The notes under the pieces are model-generated. The model did no database searches and was not told the DNA's origin. It saw only the letters and a program-made list of their open reading frames with translations. Shown in pieces: positions 1,839 through 58,321 of a stretch of 64,000 nucleotides of DNA; position 1 is the stretch's first letter; every line of letters starts with the position of its first letter. The translations under genes and the position numbers were made by a program. This DNA comes from Candidatus Shapirobacteria bacterium CG_4_10_14_0_8_um_filter_39_15 (GTDB lineage Bacteria > Patescibacteriota > Microgenomatia > UM-FILTER-39-15), in NCBI GenBank assembly GCA_002784465.1, contig PFLE01000011.1, forward strand, positions 3,966-67,965. Reading direction: 5' to 3'.

Positions 1839-2459
1839 ATGCCGGTAACATTATACAAAAGACAAAAGCAAATCTACGATTTTATTTCCCAATACATCCA
1901 AAAATTCGGCTGCTCGCCAACCCTTCAGCAAATAGCCGACGCGATTAATGTTCATTCTCTGGCCACCATTCACGAACATTTACAGGCAATGGTCAAAAAG
2001 GGCGTCATCCGTAAATACGAAGGAACAATTCGGGGAATTGAATTGATTGACAAAAAAATGGGTGAACTGACCAAAGGGATTGAAGTGCCGATTTTGGGCT
2101 ATATTGCCGCCGGCGCACCAATAGAACCATTCACTGATCCCAATGCCACTTTGCAAGTTTCAGCCTCAATGCTTTCAGGTGGAAAATCCTCCTTTGTTTT
2201 ACAAGTTAAAGGCGAGTCAATGATTGAAGACGGCATTCTTCCGGATGATTATGTCGTGGTTGAACAGCAGGAAGTCGCCAATAACGGCGATATTGTGGTG
2301 GCGCTATTAGATAACGGCTTTGCCACTTTAAAACGATTTTATAAAGAAGCCAGCCGGATCCGTTTGGAACCAGCAAATGCTAAAATGTCTCCTATCTTTG
2401 CCACAAGAGTAAGAATTCAGGGAAAAGTGGTGGGAGTAATCAGAAAATATCAGGTTTAA
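1839..2459 (+). CDS. lexA: LexA repressor (wHTH plus S24 autopeptidase)
   Basis: 206 aa. The N-terminal wHTH is followed by the cleavage-site motif GYIAAGAPIEP. The Ser of GESM and the Lys of TLKRFY form the S24 dyad. Confidence 0.85.
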   Translation: MPVTLYKRQKQIYDFISQYIQKFGCSPTLQQIADAINVHSLATIHEHLQAMVKKGVIRKYEGTIRGIELIDKKMGELTKGIEVPILGYIAAGAPIEPFTDPNATLQVSASMLSGGKSSFVLQVKGESMIEDGILPDDYVVVEQQEVANNGDIVVALLDNGFATLKRFYKEASRIRLEPANAKMSPIFATRVRIQGKVVGVIRKYQV

Positions 2460-3145
2460 TGAATAAATTATTTTTGGTCGCTACGCCAATAGGCAATCTT
2501 CAAGATATTTCATTTCGCGCGGTAGAAACTTTGAAAACTGTCTCAATAATCGCTTGCGAAGATACCAGAAAAACAGGACAACTGCTTAAAAATTTTGATA
2601 TTCCAAACAAACGCTTGATTTCTTATTATGAAGAAAATGAAATCACCAGGATTCTGGAGATAGTTCAATTAATTAAACTGGGTAATGATGTTGCCTTAAT
2701 TTCTAACGCCGGAACACCGACAATTTCTGATCCGGGCTATAAGCTTGTTCGGGAATGTATCAAACAGGGAATTGTAGTTGAATCAATCCCCGGTCCTTCG
2801 GCTTTATTAACCGCGCTTATTTCTTCAGGATTACCAACGGATAAATTTATGTATTTGGGTTTTCTGCCGGAAAAACAAGGAAAAAAAAGGGCTCTTCTGG
2901 AAAGTTTAAAAACAATTCAACAATTTAATAATTTAACAATCATTGTTTACGAATCCCCTTACCGTTTGCAAAAAACACTGGTTCAAATATTCGAAGTATT
3001 TGGCGATATTGACATTGTTATTGCCAGAGAAATGACTAAAGTTTTCGAAGAGACCAGACGCGAAAAAGTCAGTCAGGCAATCACTCATTTTGCAAAAGTA
3101 AACCCAAAAGGAGAATTTACAATTTTATGGAAACCAGAGTTCTAA
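2459..3145 (+). CDS. rsmI: 16S rRNA (cytidine1402-2'-O)-methyltransferase RsmI (tetrapyrrole-methylase fold)
   Basis: N-terminus LFLVATPIGNLQDISFRAVETLK...ACEDTRKTGQLL is typical of RsmI. The ATG overlaps the lexA stop. Confidence 0.85.
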   Translation: MNKLFLVATPIGNLQDISFRAVETLKTVSIIACEDTRKTGQLLKNFDIPNKRLISYYEENEITRILEIVQLIKLGNDVALISNAGTPTISDPGYKLVRECIKQGIVVESIPGPSALLTALISSGLPTDKFMYLGFLPEKQGKKRALLESLKTIQQFNNLTIIVYESPYRLQKTLVQIFEVFGDIDIVIAREMTKVFEETRREKVSQAITHFAKVNPKGEFTILWKPEF

Positions 3146-3186
3146 AGCTTGATTCAATCGGAATAATTTTGTCCACATTTTCCATT

Positions 3187-3209
3187 TTCCACATCGGATG
3201 TGGAATAGC
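3187..3209. repeat. REP-A palindrome TTCCACATCGGATGTGGAA plus TAGC, left flank of RAYT-1
   Basis: Perfect 19-nt palindrome (9-bp stem, 1-nt centre) lying 37 nt upstream of the RAYT-1 start. Confidence 0.7.
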
Positions 3210-3245
3210 TTGACACATCGGGAATAAAAGGATAAATTTATTGTA

Positions 3246-3914
3246 ATGCCTTATCGATTTACTCCATTAGTGACAGGACAGTTTTATCACATCTTTAATC
3301 GTGGGATTGCTCGGCAACCAGTTTTTCTAGATAAATATGATTACCAAAGAATGATTGATACTCTTTGGTTTTATCATTTTGCTGAATCTTCTGTCAAATT
3401 TTCTCGCTATTTAACTCTTCCTTATAAACAAAAGACTTCCTTAATTAATACACTTGCACTTTCTAAAGACATCGTCTCTATTAACACTCATGCATTAATG
3501 CCCAATCATTTTCATCTTTTATTAAGTCAAGAAAAAGATGGAGGAATATCTAAGTTTATTAAGAAGGTAATTGATAGCTATACTCGTTTTTTCAATACCA
3601 AATACGAGAGAAATGGAGCCATCTTTCAAGGTCAGTTCAAAGCGAAATTAATCGAATCAGACGAACAACTTCTTCATCTTTCCAGATATATTCATCTAAA
3701 TCCCTATACCTCTCATATTGTGAATAGGTTAGAAGATATTATTAATTATCCCTGGTCTTCAATGAGTGAGTATATGAATATACGAGAGGGGATATCTAAT
3801 CCAAAATATATATTAAGTAATTTTGGGTCAAAAGAGAAATATTTAGAGTTCGTTAACGATCAGAAGAATTATCAGCGAATCTTGGGTGATATTAAGCATC
3901 TTACTTTCGAATAA
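3246..3914 (+). CDS. REP-associated tyrosine transposase-like protein (RAYT / IS200-like Y1 HuH transposase family), copy 1
   Basis: HuH motif MPNHFHLLL. The C-terminal pattern ...IFQGQFKAKLIESDEQLLHLSRYIHLNPY...INYPWSS matches E. coli RayT (IWQPRFWEHAI...YIYINPV...DWPFSS). It is a paralogue of the ORF at 57555..58214. Confidence 0.75.
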   Translation: MPYRFTPLVTGQFYHIFNRGIARQPVFLDKYDYQRMIDTLWFYHFAESSVKFSRYLTLPYKQKTSLINTLALSKDIVSINTHALMPNHFHLLLSQEKDGGISKFIKKVIDSYTRFFNTKYERNGAIFQGQFKAKLIESDEQLLHLSRYIHLNPYTSHIVNRLEDIINYPWSSMSEYMNIREGISNPKYILSNFGSKEKYLEFVNDQKNYQRILGDIKHLTFE

Positions 3915-3931
3915 TATCCCGACGTGCGAAC

Positions 3932-3953
3932 CTATTCCACATCCGATGTGGAA
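3932..3953. repeat. REP-A palindrome (CTA-TTCCACATCCGATGTGGAA), right flank of RAYT-1, inverted relative to the left copy
   Basis: Same 19-nt palindrome as the left copy with a complementary centre base. It lies 18 nt after the RAYT-1 stop. Confidence 0.7.
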
Positions 3954-3974
3954 AGGATATCCGCCGAGAAAAAA

Positions 3975-5684
3975 TTAGTATTCCTCAAGAGTTGAAGTAT
4001 CCCCCAATGGTAAGCCCAATTCTTTGGCTTTTAAATATCTTCTGACAATTTTACCCGACCTGGTTTTGGGTAATCTTTCAATAAATTCTATTTCTCTTGG
4101 ATACGCGTGGCCGGCCAAATGGGTTTTAACGTGCTGTTGAAGCATTTGAATCAGCTTATCCGAACCTTTAAACCCCGGTTTTAGAACAACAAATGCTTTA
4201 ATTATTTCACCCCGCAAAGGATCCGGCTTGCCGATTACGCCCGTCTCCGCGACTTCCTGACATTCCAAAAGCGACGATTCGACTTCAAATGGCCCGACTC
4301 TCTCTCCTGATGTTTTTATTACGTCATCCGCCCGCCCGACAAACCAGAAATAGCCGTCTTTATCTTTATAAGCCAGGTCGCCGGACAAATACCATTTTTT
4401 ACCTTTATTGGTTACAAAATATTTTTGATATTTATGAGGACGGAGCCAAATTGTTTTCATCATTGACGGCCAACCAGGCTTAATCGCCAAATTGCCGATT
4501 TGTTTTTCTTTTAAAACTTCCCCCTTATCATTCACAATATCCGCCACCACGCCGGGAATCGGTTTTCCCATTGACCCGGGTTTAATATCCAAACAGGGAT
4601 AATTGGCAATCAGAATGCCGCCGGTTTCCGTTTGCCACCAGTTGTCATGGAAAGGCAAACCAATCGCTTTTATGCCCCAAAAAACCGCTTCGGGATTTAA
4701 CGGTTCACCCACCGAGGCTAAATGGCGCAAAGACGAAAGATCATATTTTCCGACTAATTTTTTATCGGATGCCGCCAGCATCCGAATAGCCGTTGGTGCC
4801 GTATACCAAACATTTACTTTGTAGTCTTGTATTAGCTGATACCAAGTTGCCGGATCAAAACGGCCGGAATAAATTAAAGAAGAAGCCCCGTTTGACCAGG
4901 AGCCCAGGATTTCATAGGCAATGCCGGTAACCCAACCCGGATCGGCGGTGCACCAATAAACATCTTCATCGTGAATATCCAAGACCCATTTGGCAGTCAG
5001 ATGTTCGACATAAATTGCTTTATGAGAGTGGATTACCCCCTTGGGTTTACCGGTAGTACCGGAAGTATAAAGCATAAACGCCGGCTCATCCGGATCCATT
5101 TGGGCAATTTTAAAAGTATCAACCTGTTTGGCCAGTTCCAAAGCCAGATCTTCAACCAGAACAATTTTTTCCAGATGAACAAGTTTTTTTCTAATTTCAT
5201 TAACTCGCGGTAAAAGATCATTATTGGTGATTAAAATTTTGGCTTTCGAGTTGCTTAGACGATCTAAAAGAGCTTGCGGACCAAAAGCCGAAAACATTGT
5301 TCCGGCAATCGCGCCGATTTTTAGAGTACCTAAAAATCCATAATATAATTCCGGAACTCTGGGCAGAAAAAAGAAAACCCGATCTGATCTTTCAACACCT
5401 AAACTTTTTAAATAATTGGCAAAACGGTTGGATAATAAAGATAATTCCAAAAAAGTATATTTAATTTTTAAACCGGTTTCATCCTGCCAATATAAAGCGA
5501 CTTTGTTTTTTCTTTGATTTCCGGCATTGTAATCGATTGCCCAATAGGCCGCGTTCATTTTACCGCCGGGGAATTTGGGAATACCAAAATCATAAGTTTT
5601 CCAATCGAAAGTCCGATAGGTTTTTTCGTAATCCGTTAAATTCGGCGGATTTTTATACTTCTTTCTTATTTTAGTATCGTTCAT
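3975..5684 (-). CDS. AMP-forming acyl-CoA synthetase, acetyl-CoA synthetase-like
   Basis: AMP-binding signature YTSGTTGKPKGVIHSH. 569 aa, with an ACS-like N-terminal region. Confidence 0.75.
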   Translation of the reverse strand: MNDTKIRKKYKNPPNLTDYEKTYRTFDWKTYDFGIPKFPGGKMNAAYWAIDYNAGNQRKNKVALYWQDETGLKIKYTFLELSLLSNRFANYLKSLGVERSDRVFFFLPRVPELYYGFLGTLKIGAIAGTMFSAFGPQALLDRLSNSKAKILITNNDLLPRVNEIRKKLVHLEKIVLVEDLALELAKQVDTFKIAQMDPDEPAFMLYTSGTTGKPKGVIHSHKAIYVEHLTAKWVLDIHDEDVYWCTADPGWVTGIAYEILGSWSNGASSLIYSGRFDPATWYQLIQDYKVNVWYTAPTAIRMLAASDKKLVGKYDLSSLRHLASVGEPLNPEAVFWGIKAIGLPFHDNWWQTETGGILIANYPCLDIKPGSMGKPIPGVVADIVNDKGEVLKEKQIGNLAIKPGWPSMMKTIWLRPHKYQKYFVTNKGKKWYLSGDLAYKDKDGYFWFVGRADDVIKTSGERVGPFEVESSLLECQEVAETGVIGKPDPLRGEIIKAFVVLKPGFKGSDKLIQMLQQHVKTHLAGHAYPREIEFIERLPKTRSGKIVRRYLKAKELGLPLGDTSTLEEY

Positions 5685-14878: not shown

Positions 14879-14953
14879 GGCCCCGTAGCTCAGCGGTAGA
14901 GCAGTTGCCTTTTAAGCAATTGGTCACAGGTTCGAGTCCTGTCGGGGTCACCA
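14879..14953 (+). tRNA. tRNA-Lys (anticodon TTT), CCA encoded
   Basis: Acceptor GGCCCCG/CGGGGTC, anticodon stem GTTGC/GCAAT with loop CTTTTAA, T-arm CACAGG-TTCGAGT-CCTGT. Confidence 0.85.
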
Positions 14954-14956
14954 TAT

Positions 14957-14995
14957 CTACGTTCACACCTTTAAGGTGAACTACGTTCACACCTT
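14957..14995. repeat. REP-B element copy a (CTACGTTCACACCTTTAAGGTGAACTACGTTCACACC)
   Basis: Direct repeat of (C/T)TACGTTCACACC around a palindromic core CACCTTTAAGGTG. It lies immediately 3' of tRNA-Lys. Confidence 0.75.
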
Positions 14996-15008
14996 GGGAA
15001 TCGAATCT

Positions 15009-23188: not shown

Positions 23189-23242
23189 AAGACTAAATGG
23201 AGTTTAAAGCAGTCGAAAGGAAAATGCAAAAAACATTCCCCT

Positions 23243-23255
23243 TCCGATGTGGAAA
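23243..23255. repeat. half-copy of the REP-A palindrome (TCCGATGTGGAAA)
   Basis: Matches the right arm of REP-A at 3941-3954. It lies in an accessory region. Confidence 0.4.
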
Positions 23256-34533: not shown

Positions 34534-34592
34534 CTACGTTCACACCTTAAAGGTGAATTAGCTTCACACCTCGGGTATTTGTTCACTTACGA
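34534..34592. repeat. REP-B element copy b with a 25-nt tail (…GAATTAGCTTCACACCTCGGGTATTTGTTCACTTACGAG)
   Basis: Same core as copy a. Its tail is shared with copy c. Confidence 0.7.
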
Positions 34593-35855: not shown

Positions 35856-36025
35856 ATTATTAAACTATTCCCTCTCATCGGTGGTTGAAATTTTCTAACA
35901 ATAACTTCTTATTGTGATATCTTCTCATGTTCTTCTTAATAAAGTTTTTGGCTCTAGGAAATTATTATAAAGACAATTTACCCCGGATCAAGTCCCACTT
36001 TAACTTCATACAACAGGTGTCAATG

Positions 36026-36081
36026 TTACCCACCTTAAAGGTGAATTAGCTTCACACCTCGGGTATTTGTTCACTTACGAG
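36026..36081. repeat. REP-B element copy c (same subtype and tail as b)
   Basis: CCACCTTAAAGGTGAATTAGCTTCACACCTCGGGTATTTGTTCACTTACGAG. It contains the dnaE stop codon. Confidence 0.7.
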
Positions 36082-44146: not shown

Positions 44147-44193
44147 CTACGTTCACACCTTAAAGGTGAATTACGTTCACACCTTCGTTATTC
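44147..44193. repeat. REP-B element copy d (AACTACGTTCACACCTTAAAGGTGAATTACGTTCACACCTTCG)
   Basis: Intergenic between gatC and gatA. Confidence 0.75.
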
Positions 44194-49504: not shown

Positions 49505-49554
49505 TCTACGTTCACACCTTAAAGGTGATCTAGCTTCGCACCTCGGGATTTTTC
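49505..49554. repeat. REP-B element copy e (TCTACGTTCACACCTTAAAGGTGATCTAGCTTCGCACCTCGGGATTTTTC)
   Basis: Same subtype as copies b and c. It supplies the last codons and the stop of the ORF 49519..50763. Confidence 0.7.
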
Positions 49555-57473: not shown

Positions 57474-57515
57474 AACTACGTTCACACCTTAAAGGTGAAT
57501 TACGTTCGCACCTCC
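57474..57515. repeat. REP-B element copy f (AACTACGTTCACACCTTAAAGGTGAATTACGTTCGCACCTCC), left flank of RAYT-2
   Basis: Lies 40 nt upstream of the RAYT-2 start. Confidence 0.75.
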
Positions 57516-57554
57516 TACTTTACATTCTTATTTAATTATTTTATAGTAATAATT

Positions 57555-58214
57555 ATGCCAGGGAGAAATCCAATTTTAGCTACAGGTGAAATTTATCATG
57601 TTTTTAATCGAGGTGTTGAACATCGTCAAATCTTTCATGATGTTTATGACTATCAAAGAGCAATTGGAGCAATTAATTTCTATCAACACAATCCAGAACT
57701 TAAATTTTCAGATTTTCTTAATCTCCCAATCGATCAAAAGCAACAAATTCTAAAAGATATTGATAAATTACCAAAAATTGTCGAAATACTCTGCGAATGT
57801 TTAATGCCTAATCATTTCCATTTCCTTCTTGAGCAATTAACCGATCAAGGAATTTCTATTTTTTTGAGTAAATTTACAAATAGCTATACTAAATATTTTA
57901 ATACAAGAGATAACCGTGACGGAAGTTTGTTTGGAGGTCCATTTAAGGCAGTTCGCATCGATACAACTGAACAGCTACTTCAGGTTTCTCGATATGTCCA
58001 CTTAAACCCTGTTGTTTCTTTTTTAATTAAACCCGAGGAAATAATAAATTATCAATGGTCTTCATTGAAAGAATTATTAGAAAAACCTACGACTGCTCAA
58101 AAGGAATTAATTCTTTCATCATTCCAAACTCCAGCAAAATATCAGGAATTTGTCATGGATCAAGTTAACTATGCAAAATCGCTGGAAAATTTAAAAGACA
58201 AATTTTTTGAATAA
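57555..58214 (+). CDS. REP-associated tyrosine transposase-like protein (RAYT / Y1 HuH), copy 2
   Basis: HuH LMPNHFHFLL and ...GGPFKAVRIDTTEQLLQVSRYVHLNPV...INYQWSS. About 45 % identical to copy 1. ATG at 57555 is preferred to the ORF-track start at 57438. Confidence 0.75.
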   Translation: MPGRNPILATGEIYHVFNRGVEHRQIFHDVYDYQRAIGAINFYQHNPELKFSDFLNLPIDQKQQILKDIDKLPKIVEILCECLMPNHFHFLLEQLTDQGISIFLSKFTNSYTKYFNTRDNRDGSLFGGPFKAVRIDTTEQLLQVSRYVHLNPVVSFLIKPEEIINYQWSSLKELLEKPTTAQKELILSSFQTPAKYQEFVMDQVNYAKSLENLKDKFFE

Positions 58215-58222
58215 AACGAAAG

Positions 58223-58250
58223 GTGTGAACCTAGTTCACCTTAAAGGTGG
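58223..58250. repeat. REP-B element copy g, truncated and inverted (GGTGTGAACCTAGTTCACCTTAAAGGTG)
   Basis: Lies 9 nt after the RAYT-2 stop and abuts or overlaps the tRNA-Val 3' end. Confidence 0.65.
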
Positions 58251-58321
58251 GTACGGAAGGACTTGAACCTTCGGCCTCCTGAATGTGAATCAGGCGCTCC
58301 AGCCGCTGAGCTACGTACCCA
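58249..58321 (-). tRNA. tRNA-Val (anticodon CAC)
   Basis: Minus strand: D-stem GCTC/GAGC, anticodon stem CCTGA/TCAGG with loop TTCACAT, T-arm GAAGG-TTCAAGT-CCTTC, acceptor 3' CGTACCC. Position 1 is T, giving a T1:C72 mismatch. Confidence 0.7.

What the first reader, a model, noticed from the sequence alone, without database searches (positions are those of the whole stretch)
3187..3953. Canonical REP/RAYT unit 1: a Y1 HuH transposase gene bracketed by inverted copies of a 19-nt perfect palindrome
The 222-aa protein has the HuH motif (MPNHFHLLL). Its C-terminal pattern (...RYIHLNPY...INYPWSS) aligns to E. coli RayT (YafM) rather than to short IS200 TnpA.

It is flanked at -37 nt by TTCCACATCGGATGTGGAA-TAGC and at +18 nt by CTA-TTCCACATCCGATGTGGAA. 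These are the same hairpin in opposite orientation.

REP/RAYT systems are best known from Proteobacteria. A clean pair in a low-GC, CPR-like genome, inserted between rsmI and an acs-like gene, is unusual and suggests a domesticated or recently active element.
Basis: partly seen in the sequence, partly recalled or inferred. Interest (0 to 1): 0.6.

Follow-up and report, generated by a model that had tools for sequence, protein, structure and literature searches.

The report
RAYT-like gene bracketed by inverted hairpins
A small DNA-cutting enzyme gene in a tiny-genome (CPR) bacterium sits between two mirror-image copies of its own hairpin sequence; this is the known "REP-associated transposase" layout, here from a very large, apparently undescribed branch common in these bacteria.

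Summary
A 222-aa HUH/Y1 gene (3246-3914) is bracketed by inverted copies of a 19-nt palindrome (3187-3205, 3935-3953). Each palindrome is part of a ~40-nt module: hairpin, TA-containing tag, then a repeat of the hairpin arm.

The protein is RAYT-like rather than IS200-like. It has a YIHLNP motif, its best fold match is E. coli TnpA-REP (4er8), and RAYT is its only NCBIfam hit, though below cutoff. "Canonical" overstates it:
- there is no GTAG tag;
- the motif signature resembles subclass 2.1 (TIRYT), but the HTH tail is missing and there is an extra ~30-aa insertion;
- this unit's module has only one decayed extra copy in the 64 kb.

The layout is family-wide. In 45 of 72 homologous loci the same hairpin is on both flanks, and hairpin types largely track protein clusters. 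The family has 1,665 50%-identity clusters at E<=1e-30, and the few source-named members are Patescibacteria.

A second paralog (57555-58214) has its own module, with five solo extragenic copies in the window, a REP-like density.

Close orthologs share only the hairpin-to-hairpin block. One relative lacks the unit at the rsmI/acs junction and another keeps it there.

Verdict: a new member of the RAYT/TIRYT kind, of moderate interest.

The parts
2459..3145 (+). Left neighbour: rsmI (16S rRNA C1402 2'-O-methyltransferase type)
   Evidence: ORF. Pfam TP_methylase and source names.
3185..3225 (+). Left module of unit 1: hairpin, then TAGC tag, then arm repeat. It contains the 19-nt palindrome 3187-3205, the tag 3206-3209 and the arm repeat CACATCGGGA at 3214-3223.
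   Evidence: Sequence. Exact pattern match. 38-nt inverted repeat. Covariance-model hit of 46.1 bits. ssDNA fold of -6.4 kcal/mol.
3210..3238 (+). Promoter-like site TTGACA-17-TAAATT. The -35 hexamer overlaps the arm repeat, and the -10 hexamer ends 7 nt before the ATG.
   Evidence: Best promoter match in the region, 10 of 12 positions. TTGACAC recurs at the same place upstream of many homologs. A consensus match only; function is inferred.
3246..3914 (+). 222-aa Y1 HUH endonuclease gene of the RAYT-like class 2. HuH is at H88/H90, the putative catalytic Tyr is Y148 (YIHLNP), and WSS is at 170-172.
   Evidence: AlphaFold model with pLDDT 90.9. Best PDB fold match 4er8_A.
3915..3955 (-). Right module of unit 1, an inverted copy of the left one. 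It contains the arm repeat TCCCGACGTG at 3917-3926, the tag CCTA at 3931-3934 and the palindrome at 3935-3953.
   Evidence: Covariance-model hit of 40.4 bits. Fold of -8.7 kcal/mol, z -3.5.
3956..3979 (+). 24-nt remnant resembling the 3' coding region of a relative's rsmI, directly outside the right hairpin
   Evidence: 22 of 24 identical to L104 1083-1106. Unexplained.
3975..5684 (-). Right neighbour: AMP-binding (acs-like) gene, convergent with rsmI
   Evidence: 80-90% amino-acid identity over the BLASTP segments to the L104 ortholog.
23236..23254 (.). Decayed solo copy of the unit-1 palindrome (2-3 mismatches), which no longer folds
   Evidence: No ORF of 50 aa or more covers it.
57480..57520 (+). 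Left module of unit 2 (type-2 hairpin GTTCACACCTTAAAGGTGAA)
57555..58214 (+). Second Y1 paralog, 219 aa, 45% identical to the unit-1 protein
   Evidence: tblastn. Pfam Y1_Tnp.
58214..58254 (-). Right module of unit 2. Its outer arm overlaps the 3' end of tRNA-Val (58246-58320, minus strand).
14961..15001 (+). Solo type-2 module, 8 nt after tRNA-Lys
34538..34578 (+). Solo type-2 module, intergenic
36008..36066 (.). Solo type-2 composite: two modules back to back sharing one hairpin, at the 3' end of the dnaE-like ORF
44151..44191 (+). Solo type-2 module, intergenic, overlapping a stop codon
49510..49550 (+). Solo type-2 module between convergent genes

Best explanation
Unit 1 (3185-3955) is a REPtron/TIRtron-type unit. 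It is a single gene for a class-2 Y1 HUH endonuclease, RAYT-like and closest in motifs to subclass 2.1 / TIRYT. The gene is bracketed by inverted copies of its own ~40-nt recognition module.

Inferred mechanism, by analogy with E. coli TnpA-REP and IS608/ISDra2 TnpA:
1. When DNA is single-stranded, for example on the lagging-strand template, the palindrome folds into a hairpin.
2. The protein binds the hairpin together with the adjacent TA-containing tag.
3. Using H88/H90 with a metal ion and Tyr148, it cuts nearby and rejoins ssDNA through a 5'-phosphotyrosine link.
4. This can copy or move modules, producing solo copies, and only rarely moves the whole hairpin-bounded block.

The -35-like TTGACA embedded in the upstream module suggests the protein also represses its own promoter.

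What is shown: the anatomy, the fold and motifs, the family-wide flanking hairpins, the co-variation, the solo copies, and the block boundaries. What is inferred: binding, cleavage, strand preference and autoregulation.
For: Protein:
- Pfam Y1_Tnp above cutoff.
- The only NCBIfam hit is REP_Tyr_transpos.
- H88, H90 and Y148 are invariant and N152 nearly invariant across 22 homologs.
- The Y---NP motif defines class 2 and Y---Q defines IS200 (PMC6006769, Table 1).
- The AlphaFold model has pLDDT 90.9. Its best PDB match is 4er8_A, RAYT bound to a REP hairpin, at E 1.7e-6, TMt 0.68 and 181 aligned columns. IS608/ISDra2 TnpA matches reach only TMq 0.33-0.40.

DNA of unit 1:
- Exact inverted palindromes within a 38-nt inverted repeat at 89%.

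Family-wide pattern:
- 41 of 73 homologous loci exceed the 99th percentile of a mismatched-flank null for inverted repeats.
- 61-65% of flanks hold a hairpin scoring at least 7, against 6-10% of shuffled flanks. The same hairpin is on both flanks in 45 of 72 loci, against 5 of 349 for the null.
- The hairpin helix is 86.5% paired, with covariation 0.544 against 0.199 for shuffles. The arm repeat co-varies with the hairpin arm, 0.334 against 0.189.
- Hairpin types largely follow protein clusters.

Dispersal:
- The paralog's module has 5 solo extragenic sites in the window.
- The exact unit-1 19-mer occurs at about 14 Patescibacteria sites in the genome collection. By my own calculation about 4 matches are expected by chance in the whole 596-Gb collection. 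Most of these sites are intergenic solos carrying the same extended module.
- A solo composite folds into a ~25-bp hairpin at -20.1 kcal/mol, z -7.6.

Discreteness of the block:
- Orthologs L101 and L102 (86% and 77% amino-acid identity) and L105 (77% nucleotide identity) match the window only from hairpin to hairpin.
- L104 has rsmI and acs overlapping with no unit between them.
- L105 keeps the unit after rsmI.
Against: - No biochemistry was done. All activity is inferred from homology at about 15% identity to solved relatives.
- The NCBIfam RAYT score is below cutoff (48.5 against 80).
- There is no GTAG tag.
- Unit 1's own module has no intact solo copy in 64 kb, only a relic.
- The covariance model found no solos in the ~6-kb flanks of the other 80 loci, so amplification is patchy.
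- The same palindrome flanks proteins only 46% and 31% identical (L003, L014), which does not fit simple co-evolution.
- Across the whole family the arm repeat matches its own hairpin arm at 7 of 8 or better in only 15% of loci, against 2% for the null.
- The hairpins used in the covariation test were picked as palindromes, so the pairing of the main helix is partly by construction.
- The filled site is not a clean insertion into the L104-type empty site, because of the rsmI remnant at 3956-3979.
Confidence: 0.75

Rival explanations
1. It is an autonomous minimal insertion sequence, tnpA only and IS200-like. The whole hairpin-to-hairpin block transposes as a unit, and the solo modules are leftovers or miniature derivatives.
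For: - Homology with L101 and L102 stops exactly at the outer hairpin feet, and their flanks are unrelated.
- L104 lacks the unit at the rsmI/acs junction but carries a copy's left end ~460 nt upstream of rsmI in the opposite orientation.
- Many homologs lie on ~1-2 kb contigs, and the L104 contig breaks inside a module.
- Subclass 2.1 / group 1 is the most IS-like RAYT group (PMC5581495).
Against: - The ends are inverted, whereas IS200/IS605 ends are asymmetric on one strand.
- The motif is Y---NP, not Y---Q.
- There is no near-identical second copy in the window. The two paralogs are 45% identical and each has a different module.
- The unit sits at the same rsmI-adjacent site in the window and in L105, although only 72-77% nucleotide identity remains between them. 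That points to long vertical persistence.
- The type-2 solos are single ~40-nt modules (one back-to-back pair), not end-to-end pairs of both element termini.
Confidence: 0.15
2. The hairpins are ordinary regulatory or structural elements of a domesticated gene, such as an operator, a terminator or an mRNA stabiliser, and are not recombination substrates. The dispersed copies serve host functions unrelated to the protein.
For: - A -35-like TTGACA lies inside the upstream module and is conserved in homologs.
- The solos sit at or overlap the 3' ends of genes, as known REPs do (PMC3733652).
Against: - There is no T-run after the hairpins. The terminator scan found none at these sites.
- The same module is on both sides of the gene in inverted orientation in most family members, and its sequence tracks protein clusters.
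- The catalytic HuH and Tyr residues are invariant across the 22 aligned homologs.
Confidence: 0.07
3. The pair of palindromes is a chance or assembly artefact.
For: None found.
Against: - 0.01 matches are expected by chance in the window.
- An independent JGI contig is 99.95% identical over 4,190 bases that include the whole unit.
- Orthologs from other samples carry the same ends.
Confidence: 0.01

Closest known systems
E. coli TnpA-REP (RAYT, YafM) and its REPtron (subclass 2.2 / group 2; PDB 4er8)
   Same: - Y1 HUH fold, and the best structural match.
- Y---NP motif.
- A single gene bracketed by inverted copies of its cognate palindrome.
- Divergent single-copy paralogs, each with its own repeat.
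- Solo extragenic copies, shown here for the paralog in this window.
   Different: - About 15% identity, and below the NCBIfam RAYT cutoff.
- 222 aa against 165 aa, with an extra ~30-aa insertion after helix A and a longer C-terminal tail.
- The unit-1 hairpin is a perfect 9-bp palindrome without a bulge.
- The tag is CCTA/GCTA rather than GTAG.
- Copy number is far lower. E. coli K-12 has 584 REPs (PMC3333891).
TIRYT / TIRtron (Di Nocera 2013), equivalent to TnpA-Y1 subclass 2.1 (Quentin 2018) and group 1 RAYT (Bertels 2017)
   Same: - Motif signature NH[YF]H, FQ, Y[IV]HLNP and SS, and a length of ~220-240 aa.
- Flanked by terminal inverted repeats that can be self-complementary.
- Repeat families of only modest size.
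- About 2 divergent copies per genome.
- The nearest non-CPR relatives found (30-33% identity) include a Sporomusa protein with the subclass-2.1 DnaA_C-like tail.
   Different: - No distal HTH/DnaA_C-like domain. The protein ends at residue 222.
- A family-specific insertion at about residues 43-75.
- The flanks lack the GGGGWSAS motif.
- Here the flanks are true hairpins with a REP-like tag and arm repeat.
- The host group is Patescibacteria with ~1-Mb genomes (my general knowledge). Published class-2 genes are enriched in large genomes.
IS200/IS605 TnpA (IS608, ISDra2; subclass 1.1)
   Same: HUH/Y1 catalytic core. Hairpin-containing ends. ssDNA chemistry is expected.
   Different: - Y---Q motif and a ~150-aa core only.
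- Ends are asymmetric on one strand.
- Multi-copy and near-identical.
- Often accompanied by tnpB.
- None of these holds here.
REPIN / BIME (inverted REP doublets)
   Same: The solo composites consist of arm repeat, hairpin and arm repeat. Examples are window 36008-36066 and L013. They fold into one long hairpin.
   Different: The two halves share one central palindrome rather than being two REPs joined by a linker. Copy numbers are low.

Membership tests
RAYT / TnpA-REP (REPtron) | Y1 HUH core: HuH motif plus a single catalytic Tyr | tested here: met
   Pfam Y1_Tnp at 33.5 bits against a cutoff of 23. H88, H90 and Y148 are invariant in 22 homologs.
RAYT / TnpA-REP (REPtron) | Class-2 tyrosine motif Y-x-x-x-N-P (IS200 has Y-x-x-x-Q) | tested here: met
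   YIHLNP at 148-153. The criterion comes from PMC6006769, Table 1.
RAYT / TnpA-REP (REPtron) | Reaches the curated NCBIfam REP_Tyr_transpos (NF047646) cutoff | tested here: not met
   48.5 bits against a cutoff of 80. It is nevertheless the only NCBIfam hit.
RAYT / TnpA-REP (REPtron) | Fold closest to solved TnpA-REP | tested here: met
   4er8_A ranks first at E 1.7e-6 and TMt 0.68. IS608/ISDra2 rank lower.
RAYT / TnpA-REP (REPtron) | Gene flanked by inverted copies of a cognate palindrome | tested here: met
   Family-wide.
RAYT / TnpA-REP (REPtron) | The flanking palindrome belongs to an abundant dispersed extragenic family in the same genome | tested here: inconclusive
   - Unit 1 has one decayed relic in 64 kb.
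- The rest of the genome is not available, because the genome is absent from the scanned collection.
- Unit 2 has 5 solo sites in 64 kb.
- Unit-1-type solos exist in other Patescibacteria.
RAYT / TnpA-REP (REPtron) | Conserved GTAG tetranucleotide 5' of the hairpin foot | tested here: not met
   - Unit 1 has CCTA/GCTA.
- Among 33 aligned arms, 16 carry GCTA, CCTA, CGTA or TCTA at that position.
- An exact GTAG occurs in one type-2 solo, at 14961.
RAYT / TnpA-REP (REPtron) | Low copy number, with divergent paralogs each having its own repeat | tested here: met
   Two paralogs in the window, 45% identical, with different modules.
RAYT / TnpA-REP (REPtron) | Binds and cleaves the folded single-stranded repeat | not testable with these tools
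   Requires purified protein and oligonucleotides.
TIRYT / TnpA-Y1 subclass 2.1 (group 1 RAYT) | Motif signature NH[YF]H, FQ, Y[IV]HLNP and SS | tested here: met
   NHFH (87-90), FQ (128-129), YIHLNP (148-153) and WSS (170-172), compared with Table 1 of PMC6006769.
TIRYT / TnpA-Y1 subclass 2.1 (group 1 RAYT) | Distal C-terminal HTH-like domain (Bac_DnaA_C, HTH_23 or HTH_28) | tested here: not met
   No such Pfam hit at E<=0.1. The alignment ends where the Sporomusa relative's DnaA_C tail begins.
TIRYT / TnpA-Y1 subclass 2.1 (group 1 RAYT) | Flanking terminal inverted repeats, commonly with GGGGWSAS | tested here: inconclusive
   An inverted repeat is present, 38 nt at 89%. GGGGWSAS is absent from unit 1. 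GGGGTG-type arms occur in some relatives.
TIRYT / TnpA-Y1 subclass 2.1 (group 1 RAYT) | Phylogenetic or profile placement within subclass 2.1 | not tested
Only 30-33% identity to two plasmid-borne relatives was measured.
IS200/IS605 TnpA (subclass 1.1) | Y---Q motif, a ~150-aa core, and asymmetric subterminal hairpins on one strand | tested here: not met
   YIHLNP, 222 aa, and inverted ends.
IS200/IS605 TnpA (subclass 1.1) | Multiple near-identical copies, often with tnpB inside the element | tested here: not met
   There is no second copy above 46% identity in the window. The hairpins lie 40 nt and 20 nt from the gene ends, which leaves no room for tnpB.

The most novel reading that the evidence does not exclude
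The window samples a Patescibacteria-wide, previously unclassified subclass of RAYT-like Y1 enzymes. The subclass would have these features:
- more than 1,600 50%-identity clusters;
- a private ~30-aa insertion and no HTH tail;
- a three-part recognition module (arm, arm complement, tag, arm repeat) that carries the gene's own promoter;
- a REP-like repeat population, co-oriented with replication, in some ~1-Mb genomes.

If so, it is a vertically kept, domesticated hairpin-processing system in the smallest bacterial genomes. That is where published surveys, which found class-2 genes enriched in large genomes, would least predict one.
Probability: 0.3. Interest if true: 0.55.

Novelty: new member of a known kind. 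Interest (0 to 1): 0.4.

Why it matters
How REP-type repeats spread, and what RAYT-like enzymes do for their hosts, is still unsettled. Published surveys covered mostly Proteobacteria, Cyanobacteria and Bacteroidetes, and found class-2 Y1 genes enriched in large genomes (PMC6006769).

This window shows two such units within 64 kb of a Candidatus Shapirobacteria (CPR) genome, a group I know to have ~1-Mb genomes. One unit has a live-looking repeat family and the other has none. The family behind them has 1,665 50%-identity clusters at E<=1e-30.

The short perfect palindromes, and the side-by-side contrast of an amplified and a non-amplified unit, make a compact system for in vitro tests of hairpin recognition. 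For genome annotation, these genes are better labelled RAYT/TIRYT-like than IS200 'transposase', and the ~40-nt modules explain some contig breaks.

Tried and rejected
- **Single-sequence search of solved structures:** only a weak ISDra2 match at E 0.75. A profile search gave weak hits to both ISDra2 (E 1e-3 over 50 aa) and 4er8 (E 6e-3 over residues 42-173). This does not decide by score, so I used a fold search instead.
- **Genome-wide count in the window's own genome:** impossible, because the genome is not among the 185,579 species representatives.
- **First scan for solo copies:** it chose an AT-rich pseudo-hairpin as the probe for unit 2 and wrongly reported no solos. The covariance model corrected this.
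- **Arm repeat as a family-wide copy of the hairpin arm:** only a weak effect across all loci, 15% against 2%. It is clearer in the closer clade.
- **Covariance model on 100 other loci:** no solos at E<=0.001 with default filters. Dispersal is therefore not general.
- **Plasmid search:** only relatives at 31% identity or less.
- **Rfam:** only tRNAs.
- **Literature searches for RAYT/REP in Patescibacteria:** no description of this family.
- **Terminator reading of the hairpins:** rejected, because there is no T-run.
- **Clean empty-site/filled-site comparison:** not achieved, because of the rsmI remnant.
Full report
**1. The observation**

The sequence is as described. The 19-nt perfect palindrome TTCCACATCGGATGTGGAA lies at 3187-3205, and its reverse complement (centre C) lies at 3935-3953. 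With up to three mismatches, 0.01 matches are expected in the window. Three sites were found, the third being a decayed copy at 23236-23254.

Between the two intact copies lies ORF 3246-3914 (+), 222 aa, containing MPNHFHLLL, RYIHLNPY and INYPWSS. The inverted repeat extends inward to 38 nt at 89% complementarity, 3186-3223 against 3917-3954.

The distances need small corrections. The left palindrome ends 40 nt before the ATG. The right palindrome starts 20 nt after the stop.

The neighbours are a TP_methylase (RsmI-type) gene and a convergent AMP-binding gene. The protein is 100% identical to one that NCBI names as from Candidatus Shapirobacteria bacterium CG08_land. An independent JGI contig is 99.95% identical over 4,190 bases that include the whole unit.

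**2. The protein**

- It passes Pfam Y1_Tnp.
- Its only NCBIfam hit is REP_Tyr_transpos, at 48.5 bits against a cutoff of 80.
- In 22 homologs, H88, H90 and Y148 are invariant and N152 is nearly invariant.
- The Y-x-x-x-N-P motif marks class 2 (RAYT-like) Y1 proteins. IS200 TnpA has Y-x-x-x-Q (PMC6006769, Table 1).
- The full signature (NHFH, FQ, YIHLNP, SS) matches subclass 2.1, which is Bertels' group 1 and largely Di Nocera's TIRYT.

An AlphaFold model with pLDDT 90.9 matches E. coli TnpA-REP bound to a REP hairpin (4er8_A) best, at E 1.7e-6 and TMt 0.68. IS608/ISDra2 TnpA matches follow at TMq 0.33-0.40.

The nearest non-CPR relatives found are plasmid-borne and 30-33% identical. One of them, from Sporomusa, has the DnaA_C-like tail typical of subclass 2.1. 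The CPR protein lacks that tail and has an extra insertion at about residues 43-75.

The family is large. 1,665 50%-identity cluster representatives score E<=1e-30. Nearly all of the best hits are 210-230 aa, and the few source names given are Patescibacteria lineages.

**3. The DNA module**

Oriented copies show more than a palindrome. Each has a hairpin, a short TA-containing tag (TAGC in the left copy and TAGG in the oriented right copy, which read as GCTA and CCTA on the other strand), and a repeat of the hairpin's 5' arm (CACATCGGGA at 3214-3223, mirrored at 3917-3926).

The upstream repeat overlaps the best promoter-like site in the region, TTGACA-17-TAAATT at 3210-3238, which ends 7 nt before the ATG. 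TTGACAC recurs at this position in many homologs.

**4. Relatives**

Eighty metagenome loci encoding homologs were fetched.
- 41 of 73 loci have a flank inverted repeat above the 99th percentile of a mismatched-flank null.
- 61-65% of flanks hold a hairpin scoring at least 7, against 6-10% of shuffled flanks.
- The same hairpin is on both sides in 45 of 72 loci, against 5 of 349 for the null.
- The median distances are 40 nt upstream and 21 nt downstream.

Hairpin sequences differ between loci (CACCT-, AACACC-, ACGATCC- and TCAAAGC-types) and mostly follow protein clusters. On 33 aligned arms the hairpin helix is 86.5% paired, with covariation 0.544 against 0.199 for shuffles. The independently located arm repeat co-varies with the hairpin's 3' arm, 0.334 against 0.189. 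One caveat applies: the hairpins were selected as palindromes.

A direct example comes from ortholog L105. It has TTCCACCTCGGAGGTGGAA, a compensatory double change relative to the window's hairpin.

**5. Dispersal**

For the unit-1 palindrome, the window holds only the relic at 23236. In one genome per species, however, the exact 19-mer gave 20 loci. My own calculation gives about 4 chance matches for the whole 596-Gb collection.

About 14 of the loci are in Patescibacteria. Most are intergenic solos with the same extended module, including four in one 1.02-Mb Gottesmanbacteria contig. Two flank Y1 genes. A solo composite folds as a ~25-bp hairpin at -20.1 kcal/mol, z -7.6.

A covariance model built from the arms then revealed the second paralog's module in the window. 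That paralog lies at 57555-58214, is 45% identical to unit 1, and has its own inverted modules at 57480-57520 and 58214-58254. Its module occurs at five further extragenic sites: 14961, 34538, 36008-36066, 44151 and 49510.

- All five sit at or next to the 3' ends of genes or tRNAs.
- All five have the same orientation.
- The + strand has negative GC skew throughout the window. The tag-5'-hairpin sense therefore lies on the G-rich strand.
- This fits action on the lagging-strand template, but it is confounded with gene orientation.

No solos were found in the flanks of the other loci, so amplification is patchy.

**6. Mobility**

Orthologs L101 and L102 (86% and 77% amino-acid identity) and L105 (77% nucleotide identity) align with the window only from about 3185 to about 3955, that is, from hairpin to hairpin. 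L101 and L102 have unrelated flanks.

L105 keeps the unit after lexA and rsmI, although only 72-77% nucleotide identity remains. That indicates long vertical retention.

L104's acs-like protein is 80-90% identical over the BLASTP segments. In L104, rsmI and acs overlap with no unit between them. Its contig nevertheless begins with the left end of a copy, inverted, about 460 nt upstream of rsmI.

The block is therefore discrete and has moved or been lost. The history at this site is not a simple insertion: window 3956-3979 is a 22-of-24 remnant of the L104-type rsmI 3' region.

**7. Interpretation**

The best reading is a REPtron/TIRtron-type unit. It is a RAYT-like Y1 endonuclease with its cognate hairpin modules.

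By analogy with E. coli TnpA-REP, I infer that the protein recognises the folded single-stranded hairpin plus tag, and cuts and rejoins nearby through Tyr148. E. coli TnpA-REP acts on ssDNA only, needs the hairpin plus a tetranucleotide, and cleaves at C|T sites (PMC3333891, PMC8266576). Autorepression through the module-embedded -35 hexamer is also inferred.

An autonomous IS200-like element is the main rival. The inverted ends, the Y---NP motif, the absence of near-identical copies and the syntenic retention argue against it.

**8. Comparison and verdict**

In kind, this is a known system (RAYT/TIRYT). It fails three membership tests of the narrower families: the NCBIfam RAYT cutoff, the GTAG tag, and the subclass-2.1 HTH tail. 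I therefore file it as RAYT-like class 2, nearest to subclass 2.1, with the subclass unassigned.

No paper found describes this family in Patescibacteria. 'Canonical' and 'unusual for CPR' do not.

Noticed in passing
window 57480-58254, plus solos at 14961-15001, 34538-34578, 36008-36066, 44151-44191 and 49510-49550: A second Y1 paralog has its own inverted modules, and five solo extragenic copies of that module lie in the window, all in the same orientation. This is the REP-like repeat family that unit 1 lacks here.
   Followed up: yes
window 58246-58320 (tRNA-Val, minus strand) and 14879-14953 (tRNA-Lys): Unit 2's right hairpin uses the last bases of tRNA-Val (CCACC) as its outer arm. A solo module starts 8 nt after tRNA-Lys. 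tRNA 3' ends may mimic the arm and so act as targets.
   Followed up: partly
window 3956-3979, compared with L104 1083-1106: A 24-nt remnant (22 of 24 identical) of a relative's rsmI 3' coding region lies just outside the right hairpin, although a complete and more divergent rsmI lies to the left of the unit. This suggests recombination or replacement at the unit.
   Followed up: partly
window 3172-3186; L105 1995-2007; L102 and L101 outer flanks: Degenerate partial copies of the adjacent hairpin arm lie just outside the hairpins, and they change along with the arm (CCACAT in the window, CCACCTC in L105). They could be footprints, slippage products or target mimicry.
   Followed up: partly
L104 1155-4043: The relative's acs-like gene carries an intein (Intein_splicing, with a faint LAGLIDADG hit). 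The window's ortholog lacks it.
   Followed up: no
L003 and L014: The same CACATC-type palindrome flanks Y1 proteins only 46% and 31% identical to the window protein, whereas relatives at 50-55% identity use CACCT-type hairpins. Hairpin type does not always follow the protein tree.
   Followed up: partly
window 1-64000: GC skew on the + strand is negative across the whole window (about -0.01 to -0.15). The window therefore lies within one replichore, with the minus strand G-rich.
   Followed up: partly
window 1839-2459 and 2459-3145: A LexA-like gene (LexA_DNA_bind plus Peptidase_S24) ends where rsmI starts: position 2459 closes the LexA-like stop codon and opens the rsmI ATG. L105 keeps lexA and rsmI with a VTT-domain gene inserted between them.
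   Followed up: no
L047 (two Y1 genes on opposite strands, about 3 kb apart): Another metagenome contig carries two divergent paralogs of this family close together, each with its own hairpins.
   Followed up: no
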